From: an uncultured virus (IMG/VR IMGVR_UViG_3300042197_003121) | Lineage: Duplodnaviria > Heunggongvirae > Uroviricota > Caudoviricetes | Length of the DNA: 20,000 bases | Reading direction: 5' to 3' (one strand) | Virus record (IMG/VR): IMGVR_UViG_3300042197_003121 | Shown here: positions 7,725 through 14,958 of the stretch, piece by piece | Layout: every line of letters starts with the position of its first letter | How positions within the stretch are numbered: position 1 is the first letter of the stretch | The notes under the pieces: generated by a model | What the model saw: only the letters and a program-made list of their open reading frames with translations | Databases searched by the model: none | Told to the model about the DNA's origin: nothing | Made by a program: the position numbers and the translations under genes

Positions 7725-9569
7725 TCAATGGGTTTCCTTCCAATTGGCGCCAACCCGCGATTCGCCTGTGAAAGGGCACAATAAATTAAAATATTGCCCT
7801 GATTTTTGAATAGCCTCAATCGACAATTTTTGTACAGATTCTATATAAATAGGCTTTGACGCTAGCTGCCATTCATCGTGAAAAAACCCACAAAAAGCAT
7901 AATCAACTCCATGTATTAATCCTTCACCCTTTAAATTATTAAACAAAATACAAGTAGCTTTTTTCATTAATACTGCACCAGTGGATTGCAATAATTGATT
8001 CAAAGCTGAGTGCCTAGATCTAATTTGCAAGTGCCTGCCATCAATTCCTGTTAAATAACCACGCTGTGTAATCCTGGAATCAATTTTATCTTTTAACTTC
8101 TTAATTGCAGGAAGTTTTTTATAAAATGTGTCGATAACTTCTTTGCCTTTTTCCATCATCTGTTGCTCAGACCCCTTGGGGTAAAAGAGCGAACCTACCT
8201 TACGGGATCCAGCACCGTAGCAAACAGCGAAAATCAAAGACTTAGAAAGATTACGCTGTGATTTTTCAATCTCTCCAGTTCCATTCCAAACCCCAAATAG
8301 CTTGGCATTGTAAGAGTGAATATCAAATCCATCTGTGCTGACCAGCTTTGCGTACTCCCCACCATCAAAATGAGCTAGCCACGCCCCCAGTGCTCGTAAC
8401 TCCAAAGCCGCTGCGTCTGTACCGATCAGCCCCCAGCCTTCTGGAGCCGTAAACAAGGCACGACATTCATCACCATAAGGAGCGCCGACCGCTGGCACCT
8501 GACTCATGTTGGGATTTACGTGCGAACAACGACCGCTCACACAGGCATTGGTTTTAACCCCACCATGAATGCGACTATCTCTATATCGTTGACAATGAGT
8601 CAACCACGACTCTTTACCATCCGCAATTTGGCCAAGCCTTTTGTTAAGAAGTTGGTATTCAGCAAGTAACTTAGCTTCTGGATACTTTTCTCCAAGGATT
8701 TCAAGCACATCGTCATCCACCGTAACGTTACCCTTCTCTGTTCGATCAAAGCTGATTTCGGGATAACGAGCCTGTAACCTATCTGCAATTTGTTTTCTTG
8801 ATCCTGCATTGAAAACAATAACGTTTGACTTGAGCTTCCGTCCAGTTTTTTCAGAAATACGCTCTTCTGTGATTGGTGGGAATACTTCTTGGAGCTGTTC
8901 ATCAAGCTCCGCACGTTTAGCTTTGAGCGTATTGACCAGAGCGAAGGCCGCTTTTTCATTGAATGGGAAGCCAAATTCTTCCTGGAGCGACATGACTTTA
9001 GCAAACTCGTGCTCCAGCTCATGACACCTAGGATCTAACTTTTGCTCTATAAGGTACTTATAAAGTTCAAACGTTACGAGTGTATCTCCTTCACAGTATT
9101 TTTGCATTTCAGGAGTCCACTTTTCCCAGACATTGTCTACATCAGGATCTTTTTTGGTTTCCTCTTTAAACTTAATTTTTGATACTCCCAGTCTCTCGCC
9201 CCAGGCCGCAAGAGAATGGCGCCCCTTGTATTTTTTATCGATGTGAGAAAACTTCTGCTCATCGACAGGCTCCAGCTCTGGCCAGAGAACCCGACTCAAA
9301 ATTAAAGTGTCTACCGTGTCGCAATCTGATCTCATAGTGAGACCAGGATAGACTTTGCGTAGTGCCCGGTAGTCAAAATTGATTGTATTGTGACCAACCA
9401 ACTGACTTGCTTTACTGATTAAATCCAGGCCTTTTTCAATTGGGATGTACCCCTCTTGATCAGCGCAGCTGTGAACCTCTCCAGTTTCAACGTCACGCAG
9501 CACCAGACAGTGGATCCGGTCCAGCTCCCAGAGCAGACCATTGGTTTCCACGTCAAGACAGTACCGCAC
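7725..9569 (-). CDS. polA: Phage family A (T7-like) DNA polymerase with 3'-5' exonuclease domain
   Basis: Exo motifs DVET, HNTINFD, HSLAAWG, YCEGD. Pol motifs DAAALELR (A), RNLSKSLIFAVCYG (B), HDE (C). Confidence 0.96.
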   Translation of the reverse strand: MRYCLDVETNGLLWELDRIHCLVLRDVETGEVHSCADQEGYIPIEKGLDLISKASQLVGHNTINFDYRALRKVYPGLTMRSDCDTVDTLILSRVLWPELEPVDEQKFSHIDKKYKGRHSLAAWGERLGVSKIKFKEETKKDPDVDNVWEKWTPEMQKYCEGDTLVTFELYKYLIEQKLDPRCHELEHEFAKVMSLQEEFGFPFNEKAAFALVNTLKAKRAELDEQLQEVFPPITEERISEKTGRKLKSNVIVFNAGSRKQIADRLQARYPEISFDRTEKGNVTVDDDVLEILGEKYPEAKLLAEYQLLNKRLGQIADGKESWLTHCQRYRDSRIHGGVKTNACVSGRCSHVNPNMSQVPAVGAPYGDECRALFTAPEGWGLIGTDAAALELRALGAWLAHFDGGEYAKLVSTDGFDIHSYNAKLFGVWNGTGEIEKSQRNLSKSLIFAVCYGAGSRKVGSLFYPKGSEQQMMEKGKEVIDTFYKKLPAIKKLKDKIDSRITQRGYLTGIDGRHLQIRSRHSALNQLLQSTGAVLMKKATCILFNNLKGEGLIHGVDYAFCGFFHDEWQLASKPIYIESVQKLSIEAIQKSGQYFNLLCPFTGESRVGANWKETH

Positions 9570-10093: not shown

Positions 10094-10693
10094 ATGTCTT
10101 ACCGAGTTTGCCGCAAGTTTATCTCAACTACATTCCGAATTGAAAATCAAATTTCTAAAGTCTTCCTGGAGCCAATGAGAGAGCATCGCCCAGGCTTTTG
10201 GGTTTGGAATGTTGGCTTCGCTGTTGGTAAATCCAGAAGGCAGTTAAACGATTGGTACCGGAGACGAAAAAACCGAAGGCGACGCACGATTCACACTCAA
10301 CTCACTGGTAAAAGCGGGATGAAAATGATCCGTCGCGGGTTTGAAGAAGTGCTTCGCCTCCGCTGGCACATTCAACCTGGCGACTGCATAGTTCTAGACT
10401 GCACTTCAGCCGATCCAGAGCGTCAATTTCATGCCTGGAGCCGATGGCATAAACGTCACCCAGAATGGATCATTAATTACGAACGAAAAGAATTTATTTG
10501 GTATCGTCCGCCTTATCCAGATGATCAAGTTTGGAATTATTGTCAAGTTGTTGGTCGTCAACCAGCTGATCCTCTGGCGAACACGGACGGGGACGCTTAT
10601 TTTTCTGCATTTTCTCTTCAGCTAAAAGATCCACATAAGCATCAATCCAATTTCCAAATAGCTGCTCAATACAGCCAGGTTCTAGAAAATTAA
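10094..10693 (+). CDS. Hypothetical Arg/Trp-rich protein, antisense to the surrounding operon
   Basis: 199-aa ORF and the only long ORF covering 10094-10493. Confidence 0.65.
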   Translation: MSYRVCRKFISTTFRIENQISKVFLEPMREHRPGFWVWNVGFAVGKSRRQLNDWYRRRKNRRRRTIHTQLTGKSGMKMIRRGFEEVLRLRWHIQPGDCIVLDCTSADPERQFHAWSRWHKRHPEWIINYERKEFIWYRPPYPDDQVWNYCQVVGRQPADPLANTDGDAYFSAFSLQLKDPHKHQSNFQIAAQYSQVLEN

Positions 10694-10814
10694 TGGCTAC
10701 GCGGATCCCATCAGCTAATGCAGCTCTGGACTCATGCGTATTTTGCGCCAGAAGCTCCAACATGACTGCAGTCAGCCATTTATTGGGTTCTTTGTTTGGG
10801 TCGATGTACATCAA
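10494..10814 (-). CDS. Hypothetical protein
   Basis: 106 aa with ATGA coupling to the upstream gene. Its 3' part overlaps the plus-strand ORF. Confidence 0.6.
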   Translation of the reverse strand: MMYIDPNKEPNKWLTAVMLELLAQNTHESRAALADGIRVAINFLEPGCIEQLFGNWIDAYVDLLAEEKMQKNKRPRPCSPEDQLVDDQQLDNNSKLDHLDKADDTK

Positions 10815-11041: not shown

Positions 11042-11112
11042 CGGTCCGGTTTGAGATTATACATACTATTATACCACTGGGCTGAAGAAGGACAGTTGAC
11101 AGGCCCTTACTT

Positions 11113-11151
11113 AAAAAAAGGGAAGCGTAGTTCTTACTGTCTCCTACGCTT
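11113..11151 (-). terminator. Intrinsic terminator after the hydroxylase gene
   Basis: AAGCGTAG-loop-CTACGCTT, then CCC and T7 on the minus strand. Confidence 0.6.
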
Positions 11152-11176
11152 GGTAAGTGATGAGCCGTGCCTCTGA

Positions 11177-11809
11177 TCAGGGTGCGGCTCCGCCCTTACC
11201 ACGACTCAAAAGATTTGCCAGCATGGACTTAGAGTCCAGGACCCGAGCTGCTGGGGGTGCGACCTGCTTTTTAAAATCGATCAATAAGATAAATCTGGTT
11301 CGATCGCCCCAATTCCAGGCCTCATGCTCGAGCGTATCATCGAACACAAATGCTTGTCCTGGAGCCCAATGATGAAATTCATCGCCGACCCGAATCCCGC
11401 ACGTATCTGAAGTTAGTGTGCCAGTTGCTCGTCTGTCATACTCTGGACATGGCTTAGGTGTAATCAACCCAAGGTGACACCGCAACACTGAATCGCTGTA
11501 GCCTACGTGAGGTCTGATGTGGGTTTCTGGGGCCAGGGCCGAAAAGCCTGCTGTCACCATGCCTGGGATTGATTCCACAAGGCTGGTGGTCTTTGGACAG
11601 CGTTTGCAGTTTTTCGCCAGCTTTTCCCCGAAAGCGTAAAGCCCATAGACATCCCACCTACCCTCGTAAATTTCTACTTCATGCCAGGCTTGGAAGTAGC
11701 TCTTGTTATTCTCTGATTCGTTATAGAGGAGGTTATTCAGCTCCTCCAGGACATCTTCCCAGGAATCTTCTAAGGATTTAAGGAAAGAAAATTCTGCGTA
11801 TTGATCCAT
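11177..11809 (-). CDS. Aspartyl/asparaginyl beta-hydroxylase family 2OG-Fe(II) oxygenase
   Basis: CPKT, FSALAP-THIRPHVG, LRCHLGL and FVFDDTLEHEAWN..R motifs. Confidence 0.92.
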   Translation of the reverse strand: MDQYAEFSFLKSLEDSWEDVLEELNNLLYNESENNKSYFQAWHEVEIYEGRWDVYGLYAFGEKLAKNCKRCPKTTSLVESIPGMVTAGFSALAPETHIRPHVGYSDSVLRCHLGLITPKPCPEYDRRATGTLTSDTCGIRVGDEFHHWAPGQAFVFDDTLEHEAWNWGDRTRFILLIDFKKQVAPPAARVLDSKSMLANLLSRGKGGAAP

Positions 11810-11818
11810 GATTTAGAT

Positions 11819-11972
11819 GTTGTGGGCAGGCAGGCGTCTCGCAATAGAGACTTAACCGGTGCGGCCGGTCCTGCACTGCTTTATTGCGGAGCCGCTGCAC
11901 AACTCAACGGAATCCAAAAAGTCACACCCTAACGAGGATAAAGTGTGAACCTGTGGCCACAGGGGCTGCAGA
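11819..11972 (-). ncRNA. Structured 5' leader RNA, candidate cis-regulatory element
   Basis: Hairpins CCTGTG/CACAGG and TCACACTTTA/TAGGGTGTGA (G-U pairs work only on the minus strand), followed by an 85-nt multistem domain with two possible pseudoknots. Confidence 0.7.
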
Positions 11973-11980
11973 CCAAGGCA

Positions 11981-12009
11981 ATTATGCCCTACCTTATCTC
12001 AGCTGTCAA
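11981..12009 (-). promoter_or_regulatory. Sigma70-type promoter
   Basis: TTGACA (12009-12004), N17, CATAAT (11986-11981), immediately after the thyX stop. Confidence 0.75.
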
Positions 12010-12690
12010 CTAAATTTCCCATTCCACGTCTGCACCACCCAAAGCTTCTGCAATGGTAGGAAGCTGACTGCAGAAAATTTTCTTTATATCTTTTGCGATG
12101 TGCATGTGCTCCATCTGGGTGCCGTGCTTCTCCCTGAGTGCCAGGTAGGTGATCCATGACCTGATGCTGCCGTTCATGTACAGACGAGTTGGTGTAGCTA
12201 GCGGAAGGATTGCCCTGGCGCATTCCTTAGCGACACCGTTGCTAATCATCTCCTTGTACAGATGGCTAACCTCTTCAAACAGTATTCCGATTCGTCGGTA
12301 ATACTGTTGAACGGTATCAATTCCTAAATCGTCAACTGAATTTTGACGATTTTTATAGTCTTGCCTCCGCAGGTGAGGCATTTTTGGCGCCCCCAGTATA
12401 GTGATATCCTGATAGCGTGATGAAAATTCTTGATAGGAGAAGGATCTATGCCTCAGGATCTGAGCAGAAATCCCCCGCGTTGTATTAATTTCCATACAAA
12501 GGTTAGCCATCTCAAAGATTGACCAGTGCCTTTGATTGATGCAATATTTCAACAGCTTAGGAGCCGTCTCCATATTATTTTGGTTGTCCGGATTTGAAAC
12601 CCTGGCACAATAACTAATCACCTCCTCTGCATCAGGAGTGATCCACACAAGTTTGACGCTTTGCATTGGTTCAATGGCTTTGAGTTTCAT
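12010..12690 (-). CDS. thyX: FAD-dependent thymidylate synthase
   Basis: ARVS, HWSIFE, QILRHRSFSYQEFSSRY and ECARAILP motifs. Start at 12690 is supported by TAATG coupling. Confidence 0.96.
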   Translation of the reverse strand: MKLKAIEPMQSVKLVWITPDAEEVISYCARVSNPDNQNNMETAPKLLKYCINQRHWSIFEMANLCMEINTTRGISAQILRHRSFSYQEFSSRYQDITILGAPKMPHLRRQDYKNRQNSVDDLGIDTVQQYYRRIGILFEEVSHLYKEMISNGVAKECARAILPLATPTRLYMNGSIRSWITYLALREKHGTQMEHMHIAKDIKKIFCSQLPTIAEALGGADVEWEI

Positions 12691-13037
12691 TAGATGTGGC
12701 TCCATCGTTTTCGTTTTACAATCCGATAAACAGTGCTGTGATGGATACCGTAGCGTTCGGCAATTTCTTTGTAAGTTGTTTTTGTTTCCGCTAGTAAGCG
12801 GATGTCCCTTACATTTTGCTCTGTCAAGACAGAAGTGCCAGATTGTTCTCCTCTTCTAATACAATTAGAATGTTGAGGTACGCCGGGAATTGATCCGCGT
12901 TTTTTGATTGCGTAGGACTCAATTGTTTTAAAATTAGTCCCACACTTTAAGCACTTACAGTAACGCCAGGTCTCATTACCGTGGTGCTTGGTCACGGTCA
13001 CCTTGGTGTTTTTGGAATTACACTTCCGGCAATTCAT
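12690..13037 (-). CDS. NrdR-like zinc ribbon fused to a C-terminal HTH
   Basis: MNCRKC..TKV..T...RYCKCLKCGTNFKTIE, followed by EIAERYGIHHSTVYRIV. Confidence 0.75.
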   Translation of the reverse strand: MNCRKCNSKNTKVTVTKHHGNETWRYCKCLKCGTNFKTIESYAIKKRGSIPGVPQHSNCIRRGEQSGTSVLTEQNVRDIRLLAETKTTYKEIAERYGIHHSTVYRIVKRKRWSHI

Positions 13038-13960: not shown

Positions 13961-14311
13961 TCAACCATACTGTTTAATCCACCTCCCTACTGTTGTTTTT
14001 CCAATGCCAAGGAGTTGCGCAATTTGCAAGTGAGTTTTACCTTGCGTACGTAGCTCAAGGCACCAACGAAGTTTCCGTTCACACTCTTCCTCTTCCTTGG
14101 TATGAATAACTGTTGTTGTGGAAGAAGAAGAGAAGAACGGATGAACATTCTCAAGCTGATTGGAAGCCAGGCCGAGAAGGTGAACGTTACGTGCTCCTGG
14201 ATGTTCTACTTTTGCTAAATCGCAGGCTTCGAGACCGTTTTTAGCAGTGATGGTAGTCTCAACAGGCTTTCCATCTCCGAACGCAATTCGGACTTTGTAG
14301 GTCTTGCGCAT
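13961..14311 (-). CDS. Protein with C-terminal HTH
   Basis: GKTHLQIAQLLGIGKTTVGRWIK. Likely start MRKTY at 14311. Confidence 0.8.
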   Translation of the reverse strand: MRKTYKVRIAFGDGKPVETTITAKNGLEACDLAKVEHPGARNVHLLGLASNQLENVHPFFSSSSTTTVIHTKEEEECERKLRWCLELRTQGKTHLQIAQLLGIGKTTVGRWIKQYG

Positions 14312-14313
14312 GC

Positions 14314-14700
14314 TCAAACGTTTTTCCAAGAGTGACGGTTAACAACCCCGTACACCGTGGTCAAATGAATACCGAACTCCTTCGCCAGTTGGCAATATGC
14401 CGCGTGAGTGCTGTTGAACTGAGTTAGAAATTCAGGACTTGCTGCTTTTGCACGAAGTTCACGGACCCGATCAACGTTGAGTTTGGCCATAGGGCGCATA
14501 CGACGGCCCCTCTTCTCCTTCGGAGCCTTGACCGTAGTGGCCTTTACACTGGGAAGAACACTGTTGATGGGTGCGGTGATCATGATCTGATCGCTGTTTC
14601 GCGTGGCAGTCAGGACGAGGTAACCGTCGCGGACATCGATGTTGGGCGCGTCTTCTGCTGTGATTTTCAGGGTCTGGACCGCTTGGAAATTGAAAGGCAT
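14314..14700 (-). CDS. Protein with C-terminal HTH
   Basis: AKLNVDRVRELR...QLAKEFGIHLTTVYGVVNRHSWKNV. Likely start MPFNF at 14700. Confidence 0.75.
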   Translation of the reverse strand: MPFNFQAVQTLKITAEDAPNIDVRDGYLVLTATRNSDQIMITAPINSVLPSVKATTVKAPKEKRGRRMRPMAKLNVDRVRELRAKAASPEFLTQFNSTHAAYCQLAKEFGIHLTTVYGVVNRHSWKNV

Positions 14701-14746
14701 GGTTGAAAGCGCAGTGTGCGCCTGGGTTTGACCCGCAGGCTTGACC

Positions 14747-14774
14747 ACTATACATGCTCTTCGGTAGATTGCAA
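14747..14774 (-). promoter_or_regulatory. Putative sigma70-type promoter
   Basis: TTGCAA-N16-TATAGT followed by a short leader hairpin. Confidence 0.5.
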
Positions 14775-14958
14775 GAGAGGGGAGGGAACTCCTCTTCGTG
14801 GTGCATGGTTGATTCAATCGTGCGTGTGTGCATGGGCCGGGGAGTGGTGTCCTCGGCCCTCCTTTTTGCTCTTTTGAATTTTTAGATTGTCTTTATATTT
14901 GCTTATAGCTTTGTTATATATGGTGCTTCGCTGGTGGTGAGCTGAGTTCTACTCTTTC

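What the first reader, a model, noticed from the sequence alone, without database searches (positions are those of the whole stretch)
11819..11903. Candidate new riboswitch-like RNA: compact double-pseudoknot domain abutting the start of a 2OG-Fe(II) hydroxylase
Seen (minus strand): GTTGTG-CA-GCGGC-TC-CGCAATA-AA-GCAG-T-GCAGG-[ACCGG-CCGCA-CCGGT]-TAA-[GTCTC-TATTGC-GAGAC]-G-CCTGC-CTGC-C-CACAAC. P1 closes the domain and P2 leads to a three-way junction with two hairpins. Both hairpin loops are complementary to consecutive segments of the single-stranded 5' bulge: GCGG(C) with (G)CCGC, and (C)GCAAUA with UAUUGC(G). P1 ends 9 nt before the ATG, over the ribosome-binding region. The gene has its own TTGACA-N17-CATAAT promoter and terminator, giving a ~165-nt leader with two more hairpins. 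I recognise no known family. Inference: a ligand-sensing or catalytic RNA. Because the enzyme uses Fe(II) and 2-OG, and 2-OG is also the NtcA effector, the phage might read host C/N or metal status in two ways (speculative).
Basis: partly seen in the sequence, partly recalled or inferred. Interest (0 to 1): 0.85.

Follow-up and report, generated by a model that had tools for sequence, protein, structure and literature searches.

The report
New structured phage RNA, not riboswitch
The flagged 85 bases are the back half of a roughly 165-base folded RNA with its own promoter that many uncultured phages carry once per genome, and the hydroxylase gene next to it looks like a passenger rather than the gene it controls.

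Summary
The sequence is as described. Its core is real: a closing helix with two hairpins forming a three-way junction. That core recurs in 43 distinct sequences with strong covariation (90.9% of cells paired against 70.1% in shuffles; 25 of 34 pairs change on both sides).

In the family, the P1 5' strand is a hairpin loop and the 'bulge' is a stem strand.

The domain is the 3' half of a ~165-nt RNA that starts 6 nt after a conserved -10 box. From 5' to 3' it has two hairpins (the second a perfect palindrome), an optional hairpin that looks like a terminator in this clade, a hairpin with a conserved loop, and the junction.

Nothing in Rfam matches and no cultured phage carries it. Each of five phage contigs holds one copy.

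What follows the RNA varies: the hydroxylase, GP88, a tRNA-Thr, or a convergent gene. A second structured element (E2) always lies downstream on the same strand, so the two bracket a variable cargo slot.

Best reading: an autonomous phage non-coding RNA module of a new family. It happens to form the hydroxylase 5' UTR here and is not a dedicated riboswitch. Its function is unknown.

The parts
12004..12009 (-). -35 box TTGACA, directly after the thyX stop codon
   Evidence: 11 of 12 match to the sigma-70 consensus. A -35-like hexamer (at least 4 of 6) is present in 24 of 43 distinct upstream regions of the family.
11981..11986 (-). -10 box CATAAT
   Evidence: In 42 of 43 distinct upstream regions the best -10 hexamer ends exactly 6 nt before the first hairpin. 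It matches TATAAT at 5 of 6 or better in 35 of 43. The inferred start is G11974 or G11973; this is not measured.
11963..11974 (-). H0: 5'-terminal hairpin GGUCUGCAGCCC with a self-complementary core CUGCAG
   Evidence: The core is replaced by CUGAUCAG with matching flanks (GCCUGAUCAGGC, GUCUGAUCAGAC) in L051, L052 and L054.
11950..11963 (-). H1: perfect 14-nt palindrome CCUGUGGCCACAGG
   Evidence: In an alignment of loci fetched through the hydroxylase, and so unbiased for the RNA, 96.9% of cells are self-complementary, including the two central pairs. 5 of 7 pairs change on both sides.
11916..11948 (-). H2: hairpin with the conserved loop AUCCUCGUU, followed here by UUUUU (terminator-like)
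   Evidence: The U run is present only in some clades, and the hairpin is different or absent in others.
11892..11910 (-). H3: CCGUUG / loop AGUUGUG / CAGCGG.
   Evidence: Family H3 is 92.3% paired and 9 of 10 pairs change on both sides. The window pairing is shown. The family loop is (A/G)GU(G/U)GAAG.
11880..11891 (-). J: linker CUCCGCAAUAAA, homologous to the family's conserved CGAUGAAGC
   Evidence: In many relatives this strand pairs with GCUUCA-like sequence after P2' to form an outer helix. That helix is 66.1% paired and 2 of 6 pairs change on both sides.
11870..11879 (-). P2 5' strand GCAG-U-GCAGG
   Evidence: Family P2 is 99.2% paired and 5 of 6 pairs change on both sides.
11855..11869 (-). 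H4: ACCGG / loop CCGCA / CCGGU
   Evidence: Family H4 is 98.2% paired and 6 of 8 pairs change on both sides. The loop is CCGCA in 18 sequences and CCGA or CCUA in 25 sequences.
11836..11851 (-). H5: GUCUC / loop UAUUGC / GAGAC, preceded by the junction UAA (11852-11854)
   Evidence: 98.9% paired and 4 of 5 pairs change on both sides among the 18 window-type sequences. 97.6% paired in the other type.
11826..11834 (-). P2 3' strand CCUGC-CUGC. It ends 16 nt before the AUG.
11819..11824 (-).
   Evidence: Present in the window, L003 and L004; shifted in L001; absent in L007, L042, L008 and others.
11177..11809 (-). Asp/Arg beta-hydroxylase family gene (PF05118). Here it is the cargo between the RNA and E2.
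   Evidence: (E 1.6e-44).
11060..11196 (-). E2: a second conserved structured non-coding element that ends in a TATAAT box. Its first bases overlap the hydroxylase 3' end.
   Evidence: The consensus fold has 28 pairs, 17 of them with changes on both sides (8 sequences).

Best explanation
The 85 nt are the 3' domain of a new family of phage structured RNAs about 150-165 nt long. The family architecture is H0, H1, an optional H2, H3, a linker, and a three-way junction made of P2, H4 and H5.

Shown here:
- The RNA sits a fixed 6 nt after a sigma-70-type -10 box.
- Its helices covary.
- It is single-copy in each of five phage contigs.
- It is kept whatever lies downstream.
- It is always followed on the same strand by a second structured element (E2), at a distance that depends on what is inserted between them.

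Inferred:
- Host RNA polymerase starts at about G11974.
- The two 5'-terminal hairpins form first and shield the 5' end.
- In this clade H2 plus its U run can end a short form of about 55-60 nt.
- Read-through gives H3 and the junction. Their conserved unpaired bases (H3 loop, CGAUGAAGC linker, CCG(C)A loop, UUAAA junction) form a surface for a macromolecular partner or for self-association, not for a metabolite tied to the hydroxylase.
- In this window the cargo slot holds the hydroxylase in sense orientation. The RNA is therefore also that gene's 5' UTR, and its closing helix, 16 nt from an AUG without a Shine-Dalgarno sequence, may damp translation.

My confidence by level: about 0.9 that the family and fold are real, about 0.7 that the RNA is independent of the hydroxylase, and about 0.3 for the partner-binding mechanism.
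For: - Homologues: blastn links the window's leader to loci at 97% down to about 70% identity. 43 distinct sequences were examined.
- Covariation on a MAFFT-only alignment of 21 sequences: 90.9% of cells paired against 70.1% in shuffles (0 of 500 shuffles reach it) and 36-52% with slid partners. 25 of 34 pairs change on both sides.
- Covariation on 43 rows aligned by the covariance model: 32 of 34 pairs change on both sides.
- A model built only from the other loop type finds window-type relatives at E 2e-7 to 3e-4. It ranks 11820-11920 as the best hit in the whole window: 13.6 bits, E 0.072, with the next hit at 8.2 bits.
- Fixed promoter spacing holds in 42 of 43 distinct upstream regions.
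- One copy per contig in 5 of 5 contigs of 49-85 kb, one of them complete with terminal repeats.
- Downstream content among 41 distinct instances: hydroxylase 24, convergent DUF4278-like gene 10, GP88 4, other 3. In two further loci (L134, L176) a tRNA-Thr follows within a few bases of P2'.
- E2 lies on the same strand downstream in 23 of 40 distinct loci and on the opposite strand in 0. Distances are +329 with no cargo, +510-545, +825-1133, and about +1500.
- In P2, H4 and H5 there are 18 G-U cells against 6 non-standard cells. The structure therefore reads on this strand.
- One 162-nt contig from an RNA library covers 11794-11955 and bridges H2 and its U run.
Against: - No direct evidence shows where the RNA starts or ends, or that a free small RNA exists. 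The RNA-library contig may derive from DNA, and contigs do not show ends.
- 24 of the 41 instances do have the hydroxylase AUG within about 5-20 nt of the closing helix. Most of those loci were fetched using the hydroxylase as bait, but the adjacency could still matter for regulation.
- No terminator follows the junction in the window.
- No partner is identified. The conserved ~100-aa protein encoded just upstream in 35 loci has no match in this 20-kb window.
- The window's own copy scores weakly against the model (E 0.072).
Confidence: 0.5

Rival explanations
1. One reading: a cis-acting riboswitch-like sensor (or protein-binding operator) that controls the hydroxylase. Ligand binding would stabilise the closing helix next to the AUG.
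For: The RNA has covarying helices with conserved junction and loop bases, as aptamers do. The closing helix ends 16 nt before an AUG with no obvious Shine-Dalgarno sequence. In 24 of 41 distinct instances the hydroxylase follows directly.
Against: The RNA is retained where the hydroxylase is inverted (L017, L029) or not the following gene, and where a tRNA-Thr, GP88 or a convergent gene comes next. Only 1 of 17 pattern-fetched loci has the hydroxylase downstream. Several loci (L018, L024, L065) carry a T7/SP6-like promoter-like box between the RNA and the hydroxylase (the resemblance is recalled, not tested). The pseudoknots proposed as the binding core do not covary.
Confidence: 0.1
2. A promoter-proximal RNA that acts on the transcribing polymerase, like the put RNA of phage HK022 or lambda nut sites. 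It would let host polymerase read through terminators, including the RNA's own H2.
For: It lies at a fixed position right after a host-type promoter whatever follows. The 5' hairpins are highly conserved. A terminator-like H2 lies inside the RNA in this clade. An RNA-library contig bridges that U run.
Against: There is a single copy per genome. H2's U run is absent in many clades. The elaborate 3' junction has no counterpart in put or nut, whose features I recall and did not test. In ten distinct sequences the transcript would run straight into a convergent gene.
Confidence: 0.12
3. The selected function is partly at the DNA level, or is as a replication primer. The palindromes at +1 to +25 would be protein-binding or recombination sites, or the promoter plus structured transcript would mark an origin. 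The region is a hotspot where cargo is inserted and inverted.
For: H1 is a perfect palindrome including its centre, which a hairpin loop does not require. The element is single-copy and sits in the nucleotide and DNA-metabolism module, with thyX upstream and the DNA polymerase at 7725-9569. Cargo between the RNA and E2 varies in content and orientation.
Against: H3, P2, H4 and H5 have non-palindromic loops and G-U pairs that would be mismatches on the other strand. L170 carries a U-G in H1. No initiator, recombinase or AT-rich unwinding stretch was identified.
Confidence: 0.12
4. A self-cleaving ribozyme that processes the 5' leader of whatever RNA follows.
For: It has a complex conserved fold at the 5' end of transcripts with varied downstream content, including a tRNA.
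Against: No Rfam ribozyme model matches, even at E up to 10 on 401 nt. The junction strand lengths (0, 3-8 and 0-3 nt in most sequences) do not fit the hammerhead core as I recall it. No conserved double pseudoknot is present.
Confidence: 0.04

Closest known systems
HK022 put RNA and lambda nut sites (promoter-proximal antitermination RNAs of phages)
   Same: Phage-encoded RNA hairpins sit just downstream of host-type promoters, and their position does not depend on the identity of the genes that follow.
   Different: This RNA is about twice as long and adds a three-way junction. It is single-copy. I have no sequence or fold match to put or nut; their features are recalled from memory, not tested.
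Riboswitch aptamers built on three-way junctions
   Same: A closing helix encloses two hairpins, with conserved junction and loop bases and covarying stems.
   Different: There is no coherent downstream gene set. There is no Rfam match. No expression platform is coupled to the junction.
Cyanophage and marine phage RNA motifs in Rfam (PhotoRC, wcaG, manA, glutamine-II)
   Same: These are conserved structured RNAs found in phage and marine or freshwater metagenome sequence, some near host-derived metabolic genes. Their gene contexts are recalled.
   Different: None of the 4,227 Rfam models matches the window or 20 related loci.
T4-type promoter-early stem-loop (PeSL) cassettes
   Same: A host-type promoter combined with stem-loops flanks variable cargo genes. 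The PeSL description is recalled.
   Different: PeSLs are short and repeated many times per genome. This module is long, has multiple helices, and is single-copy.
Large ornate phage-associated RNAs (ROOL, GOLLD)
   Same: They are phage-borne, have multiple helices, have no fixed downstream gene, and self-assemble into RNA-only complexes (I saw only the search listing and the start of the abstract of bioRxiv 10.1101/2024.12.08.627333). Here three hairpins have self-complementary cores.
   Different: This RNA is far smaller: 165 nt alone, or about 330 nt with E2. No Rfam match was found. Self-association is untested.

Membership tests
Any Rfam 15 family | Score at or above the family's gathering threshold | tested here: not met
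   0 matches in the whole window. 0 matches at E up to 10 in 11700-12100. 0 matches in 20 related loci.
Riboswitch | Conserved aptamer with covarying helices and conserved unpaired bases | tested here: met
   90.9% of cells paired against 70.1% in shuffles, and 25 of 34 pairs change on both sides. Conserved loops are seen.
Riboswitch | Consistent position upstream of a functionally coherent set of genes | tested here: not met
   Downstream content: hydroxylase 24, convergent DUF4278-like gene 10, GP88 4, other 3, out of 41. tRNA-Thr follows in L134 and L176. Only 1 of 17 pattern-fetched loci has the hydroxylase.
Riboswitch | Expression platform coupled to the aptamer | tested here: inconclusive
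   The closing helix ends 16 nt before the AUG and no Shine-Dalgarno sequence is evident. The only terminator-like hairpin lies upstream of the domain.
Riboswitch | Specific ligand binding | not testable with these tools
   This needs in-line probing or ITC.
Double-pseudoknot RNAs (HDV-like or twister-like ribozymes) | Two conserved, covarying pseudoknots | tested here: not met
   Pseudoknot 1: 0 of 4 pairs change on both sides. Pseudoknot 2: two columns are unpaired in 13 of 17 and 13 of 18 sequences. Loops match their own upstream no better than others' upstream.
Intrinsic terminator / attenuator (H2) | GC-containing hairpin followed by a U run | tested here: met
   Window 11948-11922 has a 10-pair stem followed by UUUUU. 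The U run is missing in L010, L018, L024, L030, L036 and L017, so it is a clade feature and not a family feature.
put/nut-type antitermination RNA | Promoter-proximal position in an early transcript | tested here: met
   The -10 box ends 6 nt before H0 in 42 of 43 upstream regions.
put/nut-type antitermination RNA | Family-specific fold or sequence (two put stem-loops; boxA and boxB) | not tested
   I compared against no put or nut reference sequence; the resemblance is recalled only.
PeSL-type mobile regulatory cassette | Many near-identical copies per genome | tested here: not met
   One copy in each of 5 contigs of 49-85 kb, and one in this window.

The most novel reading that the evidence does not exclude
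The RNA and the downstream element E2 are the two halves of one ornate phage non-coding RNA of about 330 nt. In the state without cargo it has two three-way junctions and a covarying loop-loop contact. It would self-associate through the self-complementary cores of three hairpins (CUGCAG, UGGCCA, UGAUCA), as the much larger ROOL and GOLLD RNAs do. Phages use the gap between the halves as a slot for cargo genes such as the hydroxylase, so in this window the two halves would become the 5' and 3' UTRs of the cargo mRNA.
Probability: 0.15. Interest if true: 0.8.

Novelty: new member of a known kind. Interest (0 to 1): 0.62.

Why it matters
Few phage-borne structured RNAs have covariation this clean and this wide a spread across freshwater, estuarine and marine contigs while being absent from Rfam. 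This RNA gives a concrete model to search with. It has an unusual feature to test: perfectly self-complementary 5' hairpins. It also comes with a simple genomic rule, in which the RNA and a second element bracket a slot holding host-like metabolic genes in either orientation. If its partner or activity is found, that could explain how these phages use host polymerase early in infection, or how they capture and express cargo genes.

Tried and rejected
- Whole genome: none is held for this window.
- Cultured phages: blastn of the window's leader and of two family members (L071, L030) found no match.
- Exact 28-mer scan of viral contigs: no match.
- Bacterial genomes: the 5' pattern gave 40 stretches, and 0 of 40 matched the RNA model. 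I treat them as chance hits. Only this one pattern was used as a pre-filter, so absence from bacteria is not shown.
- tRNA or tmRNA reading of the element: ARAGORN finds none in the window.
- Leader peptide: the AUG inside CGAUGAAGC opens only short, unconserved frames and is missing in the window, where the sequence is AAUAAAG (reading).
- H2 loop pairing with the GGAU/GAGG stretch after H2, H2-H5 kissing, and H3 loop to H4 loop pairing: complementary in some clades only, and H2 is absent in others. Rejected as family features.
- The ~100-aa upstream protein as an obligate partner: it is beside the RNA in 35 loci, but no match was found in the window. It has no Pfam or PHROG family.
- Sequencing runs: only two holders were found. 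The lack of RNA-library cover outside 11794-11955 is not used as evidence.
- Earlier scan notes: nothing on record.
- Literature: two full-text searches found no description. In the 2023 catalogue of candidate viral structured RNAs (PMC10690425) I read the outline and abstract and searched the supplements. Files 1, 2 and 4 could not be searched, so the motif may be listed there.
- A second, broader covariance model was not built. The alignment that included the weak window-type rows also held two false rows.

Full report
**What is at the coordinates.** The 85 nt fold to -33.8 kcal/mol, z -2.78, and 2 of 200 shuffles fold as well. The MFE keeps P1, P2 and the two hairpins.

The gene downstream (11177-11809) belongs to the Asp/Arg beta-hydroxylase family, PF05118 (E 1.6e-44). 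The gene upstream is thyX. The promoter TTGACA-N17-CATAAT (12009-11981) matches 11 of 12 consensus positions. A terminator-like hairpin with a U run (11948-11922) lies between that promoter and the domain.

The window comes from an uncultured phage. Its DNA polymerase is at most 43% identical to any cultured phage, and no whole genome is held for it.

**Relatives.** I used the hydroxylase and 37 relatives as bait, and 65 metagenome loci came back. The whole ~190-nt leader, not just the 85 nt, aligns by blastn to loci at 97%, 91%, 83%, about 75% and about 70% identity.

The upstream 220 nt of all loci share one architecture from the -10 box to the start codon. Two pattern scans of viral contigs added members that are independent of the hydroxylase. 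The same 5' pattern in bacterial genomes gave 40 stretches, and none matched the RNA model.

In all I examined 43 distinct sequences. Eighteen are the window's type (H4 loop CCGCA, H5 loop UANNGC). Twenty-five are a second type (H4 loop CCGA or CCUA, H5 loop UGAA or UGAAUC).

**Fold and covariation.** I use these labels, from 5' to 3':
- H0 and H1, two hairpins at the 5' end.
- H2, a variable hairpin.
- H3, a hairpin with the conserved loop (A/G)GU(G/U)GAAG.
- A conserved linker, CGAUGAAGC.
- A three-way junction in which P2 encloses H4 and H5, joined by UUAAA.

On a MAFFT-only alignment of 21 second-type sequences, 90.9% of cells pair. Shuffles give 70.1% (0 of 500 reach the observed value), and slid partners give 36-52%. 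25 of 34 pairs change on both sides.

| Helix | Cells paired | Pairs changing on both sides |
|---|---|---|
| H3 | 92.3% | 9 of 10 |
| P2 | 99.2% | 5 of 6 |
| H4 | 98.2% | 6 of 8 |
| H5 | 97.6% | 3 of 4 |
| Outer helix (linker with sequence after P2') | 66.1% | 2 of 6 |

A covariance model built from those 21 sequences found window-type relatives that were not in its seed at E 2e-7 to 3e-4. On 43 model-aligned rows, two of them false, 32 of 34 pairs change on both sides. That alignment leans towards the structure.

With filters off, the model's best hit in the whole window is 11820-11920: 13.6 bits, E 0.072, with the next hit at 8.2 bits. Membership of the window's copy therefore rests mainly on sequence homology and shared architecture.

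Folded one at a time, 43 of 43 sequences give the junction. By a generic test, 41 of 43 do, against 132 of 1075 shuffles. In P2, H4 and H5 there are 18 G-U cells against 6 non-standard cells. This fits a structure read on this strand.

- In the family the P1 5' strand (GUUGUG) is the H3 loop. The 'bulge' GCGGC is the 3' strand of H3 (CCGUUG/CAGCGG).
The alignment is MAFFT-only and poor around H3.
- H5 is 98.9% paired there.
- Pseudoknot 1 is 64.7% paired, and no pair changes on both sides.
- In pseudoknot 2, two of six columns are unpaired in 13 of 17 and 13 of 18 sequences. The cells that do pair are invariant letters.
- L001, at 91% identity, has lost one base of pseudoknot 2.
- Without any alignment, the H5 loop's best complement in its own upstream region averages 4.18 nt, the same as against other sequences' upstream regions. 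For the H4 loop the values are 3.39 and 3.58 nt.
- Both pseudoknots and P1 are therefore window-clade coincidences or clade-specific extras.

**The 5' half.** The best -10 hexamer ends exactly 6 nt before H0 in 42 of 43 distinct upstream regions. It matches TATAAT at 5 of 6 or better in 35 of them. This places the inferred start at the first G of H0.

H1 is a perfect 12-16-nt palindrome in 29 of 30 distinct 5' ends. In the set fetched through the hydroxylase, which is unbiased for the RNA, 96.9% of cells are self-complementary, including the two central pairs. 5 of 7 pairs change on both sides. The core of H0 is also self-complementary (CUGCAG or CUGAUCAG).

A hairpin loop does not need to be self-complementary. 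This feature is unexplained. It points either to pairing between two copies of the RNA or to a DNA-level role.

**Context.**
- Among 41 distinct instances, the hydroxylase follows in 24, a convergent DUF4278-like gene in 10, GP88 (PF17338) in 4, and other small frames in 3.
- In L134 and L176 a tRNA-Thr follows within a few bases of the junction's closing helix.
- Among the 17 true loci fetched by RNA pattern alone, the hydroxylase follows in 1.
- In L017-type loci the hydroxylase and the DUF4278-like gene are inverted and converge on the RNA.
- Each of five contigs of 49-85 kb holds one copy. One of them is complete with terminal repeats.
- A second structured element, E2, has 28 predicted pairs, 17 with changes on both sides, among 8 sequences. 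It lies downstream on the same strand in 23 of 40 distinct loci and never on the opposite strand.
- E2's distance from the RNA is +329 with nothing between, +510-545 with only the inverted small gene, +825-1133 with the hydroxylase in either orientation, and about +1500 with more genes.
- In the window E2 is at about 11196-11060 and ends in a TATAAT box.

The RNA and E2 thus bracket a variable cargo slot, and the hydroxylase is one of the cargoes.

**RNA evidence.** One lake-water RNA-library run holds a single 162-nt contig that covers 11794-11955 with 5 differences. It bridges H2 and its U run. DNA can contaminate such libraries, and contigs do not show RNA ends, so this is only a hint.

**Comparison with what is known.**
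- No Rfam family matches the window or 20 related loci.
- Two literature searches found no description.
- The supplements of the 2023 catalogue of candidate viral structured RNAs could be searched only in part.
- The RNA works most like promoter-proximal phage leader RNAs, or like autonomous ornate phage RNAs.
- It fails the gene-association test for a riboswitch, the double-pseudoknot test, and the copy-number test for PeSL cassettes.

**Mechanism.** My committed reading is an autonomous non-coding RNA module made by host polymerase. Its conserved unpaired bases bind a macromolecular partner or another copy of itself. In this window it doubles as the hydroxylase 5' UTR, and its closing helix lies 16 nt from the AUG.

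The family and fold are shown. Independence from the hydroxylase is well supported. The start site, the short H2-terminated form, the partner and any effect on translation are inferred.

**Limits.**
- Most metagenome loci were baited with the hydroxylase.
- The pattern scans favour conserved variants.
- The covariance model was seeded with one loop type only.
- Shuffle controls ignore phylogeny.

Noticed in passing
window 11060-11196 (minus strand); L010:1978-2115, L013:2004-2141, L030:2420-2557, L069:1621-1758, L071:382-519(-), L076:392-529(-), L130:1300-1437: E2 is a second conserved structured non-coding element. An outer GGGG/CCCC helix encloses two hairpins, and a further GC-rich hairpin is followed by a TATAAT box. 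One hairpin has a self-complementary core (UGAUCA, UGGCCA or UAGCUA). A loop of the second hairpin looks complementary to the loop of the last hairpin, with matching changes between loci (read by eye). The consensus fold has 28 pairs, 17 with changes on both sides. No Rfam match.
   Followed up: partly
L071:1246-1557(-), with relatives in 35 loci; no match in the window: A conserved ~100-aa protein with no Pfam or PHROG family is encoded directly upstream of the RNA in many phages. Its last codons (E-L-T-I-stop or S-T-T-I-I-stop) contain the -35 box of the RNA's promoter.
   Followed up: partly
L134 and L176, 1302-1373: A tRNA-Thr (anticodon TGT) gene follows within a few bases of the RNA's closing helix. 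RNase P processing would therefore release the RNA as a separate molecule there.
   Followed up: partly
L018, L024, L025, L065 between the RNA and the hydroxylase; L068, L070, L081 between the RNA and the following gene (GP88 in L068 and L081): Short conserved boxes (such as GTGCTTACACTATGAAG and TAAACTACTCATAAGC) resemble T7/SP6-type phage polymerase promoters. The downstream genes may therefore have their own phage promoters. The resemblance is recalled, not tested.
   Followed up: no
window 10094-10693 (+) overlapping 10494-10814 (-): A 199-aa frame on the plus strand matches phrog_38455 (E 9e-47) and is conserved in L017. It overlaps a conserved minus-strand frame by about 200 nt.
   Followed up: no
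window 9276-9287 and 10763-10774: Two further perfect 12-nt palindromes, inside coding sequence, have the same cores as H1 and H0: CTCTGGCCAGAG and TGACTGCAGTCA. The total number of 12-nt or longer palindromes in the window (5) is what chance gives.
   Followed up: no
window 12690-13037, 13961-14329, 14314-14817 (minus strand): Three small proteins carry helix-turn-helix regions. The first has a zinc ribbon plus HTH_23 by Pfam. The other two I judged only from reading their C-terminal sequence. They are candidates for binding the palindromes if those act at the DNA level.
   Followed up: no
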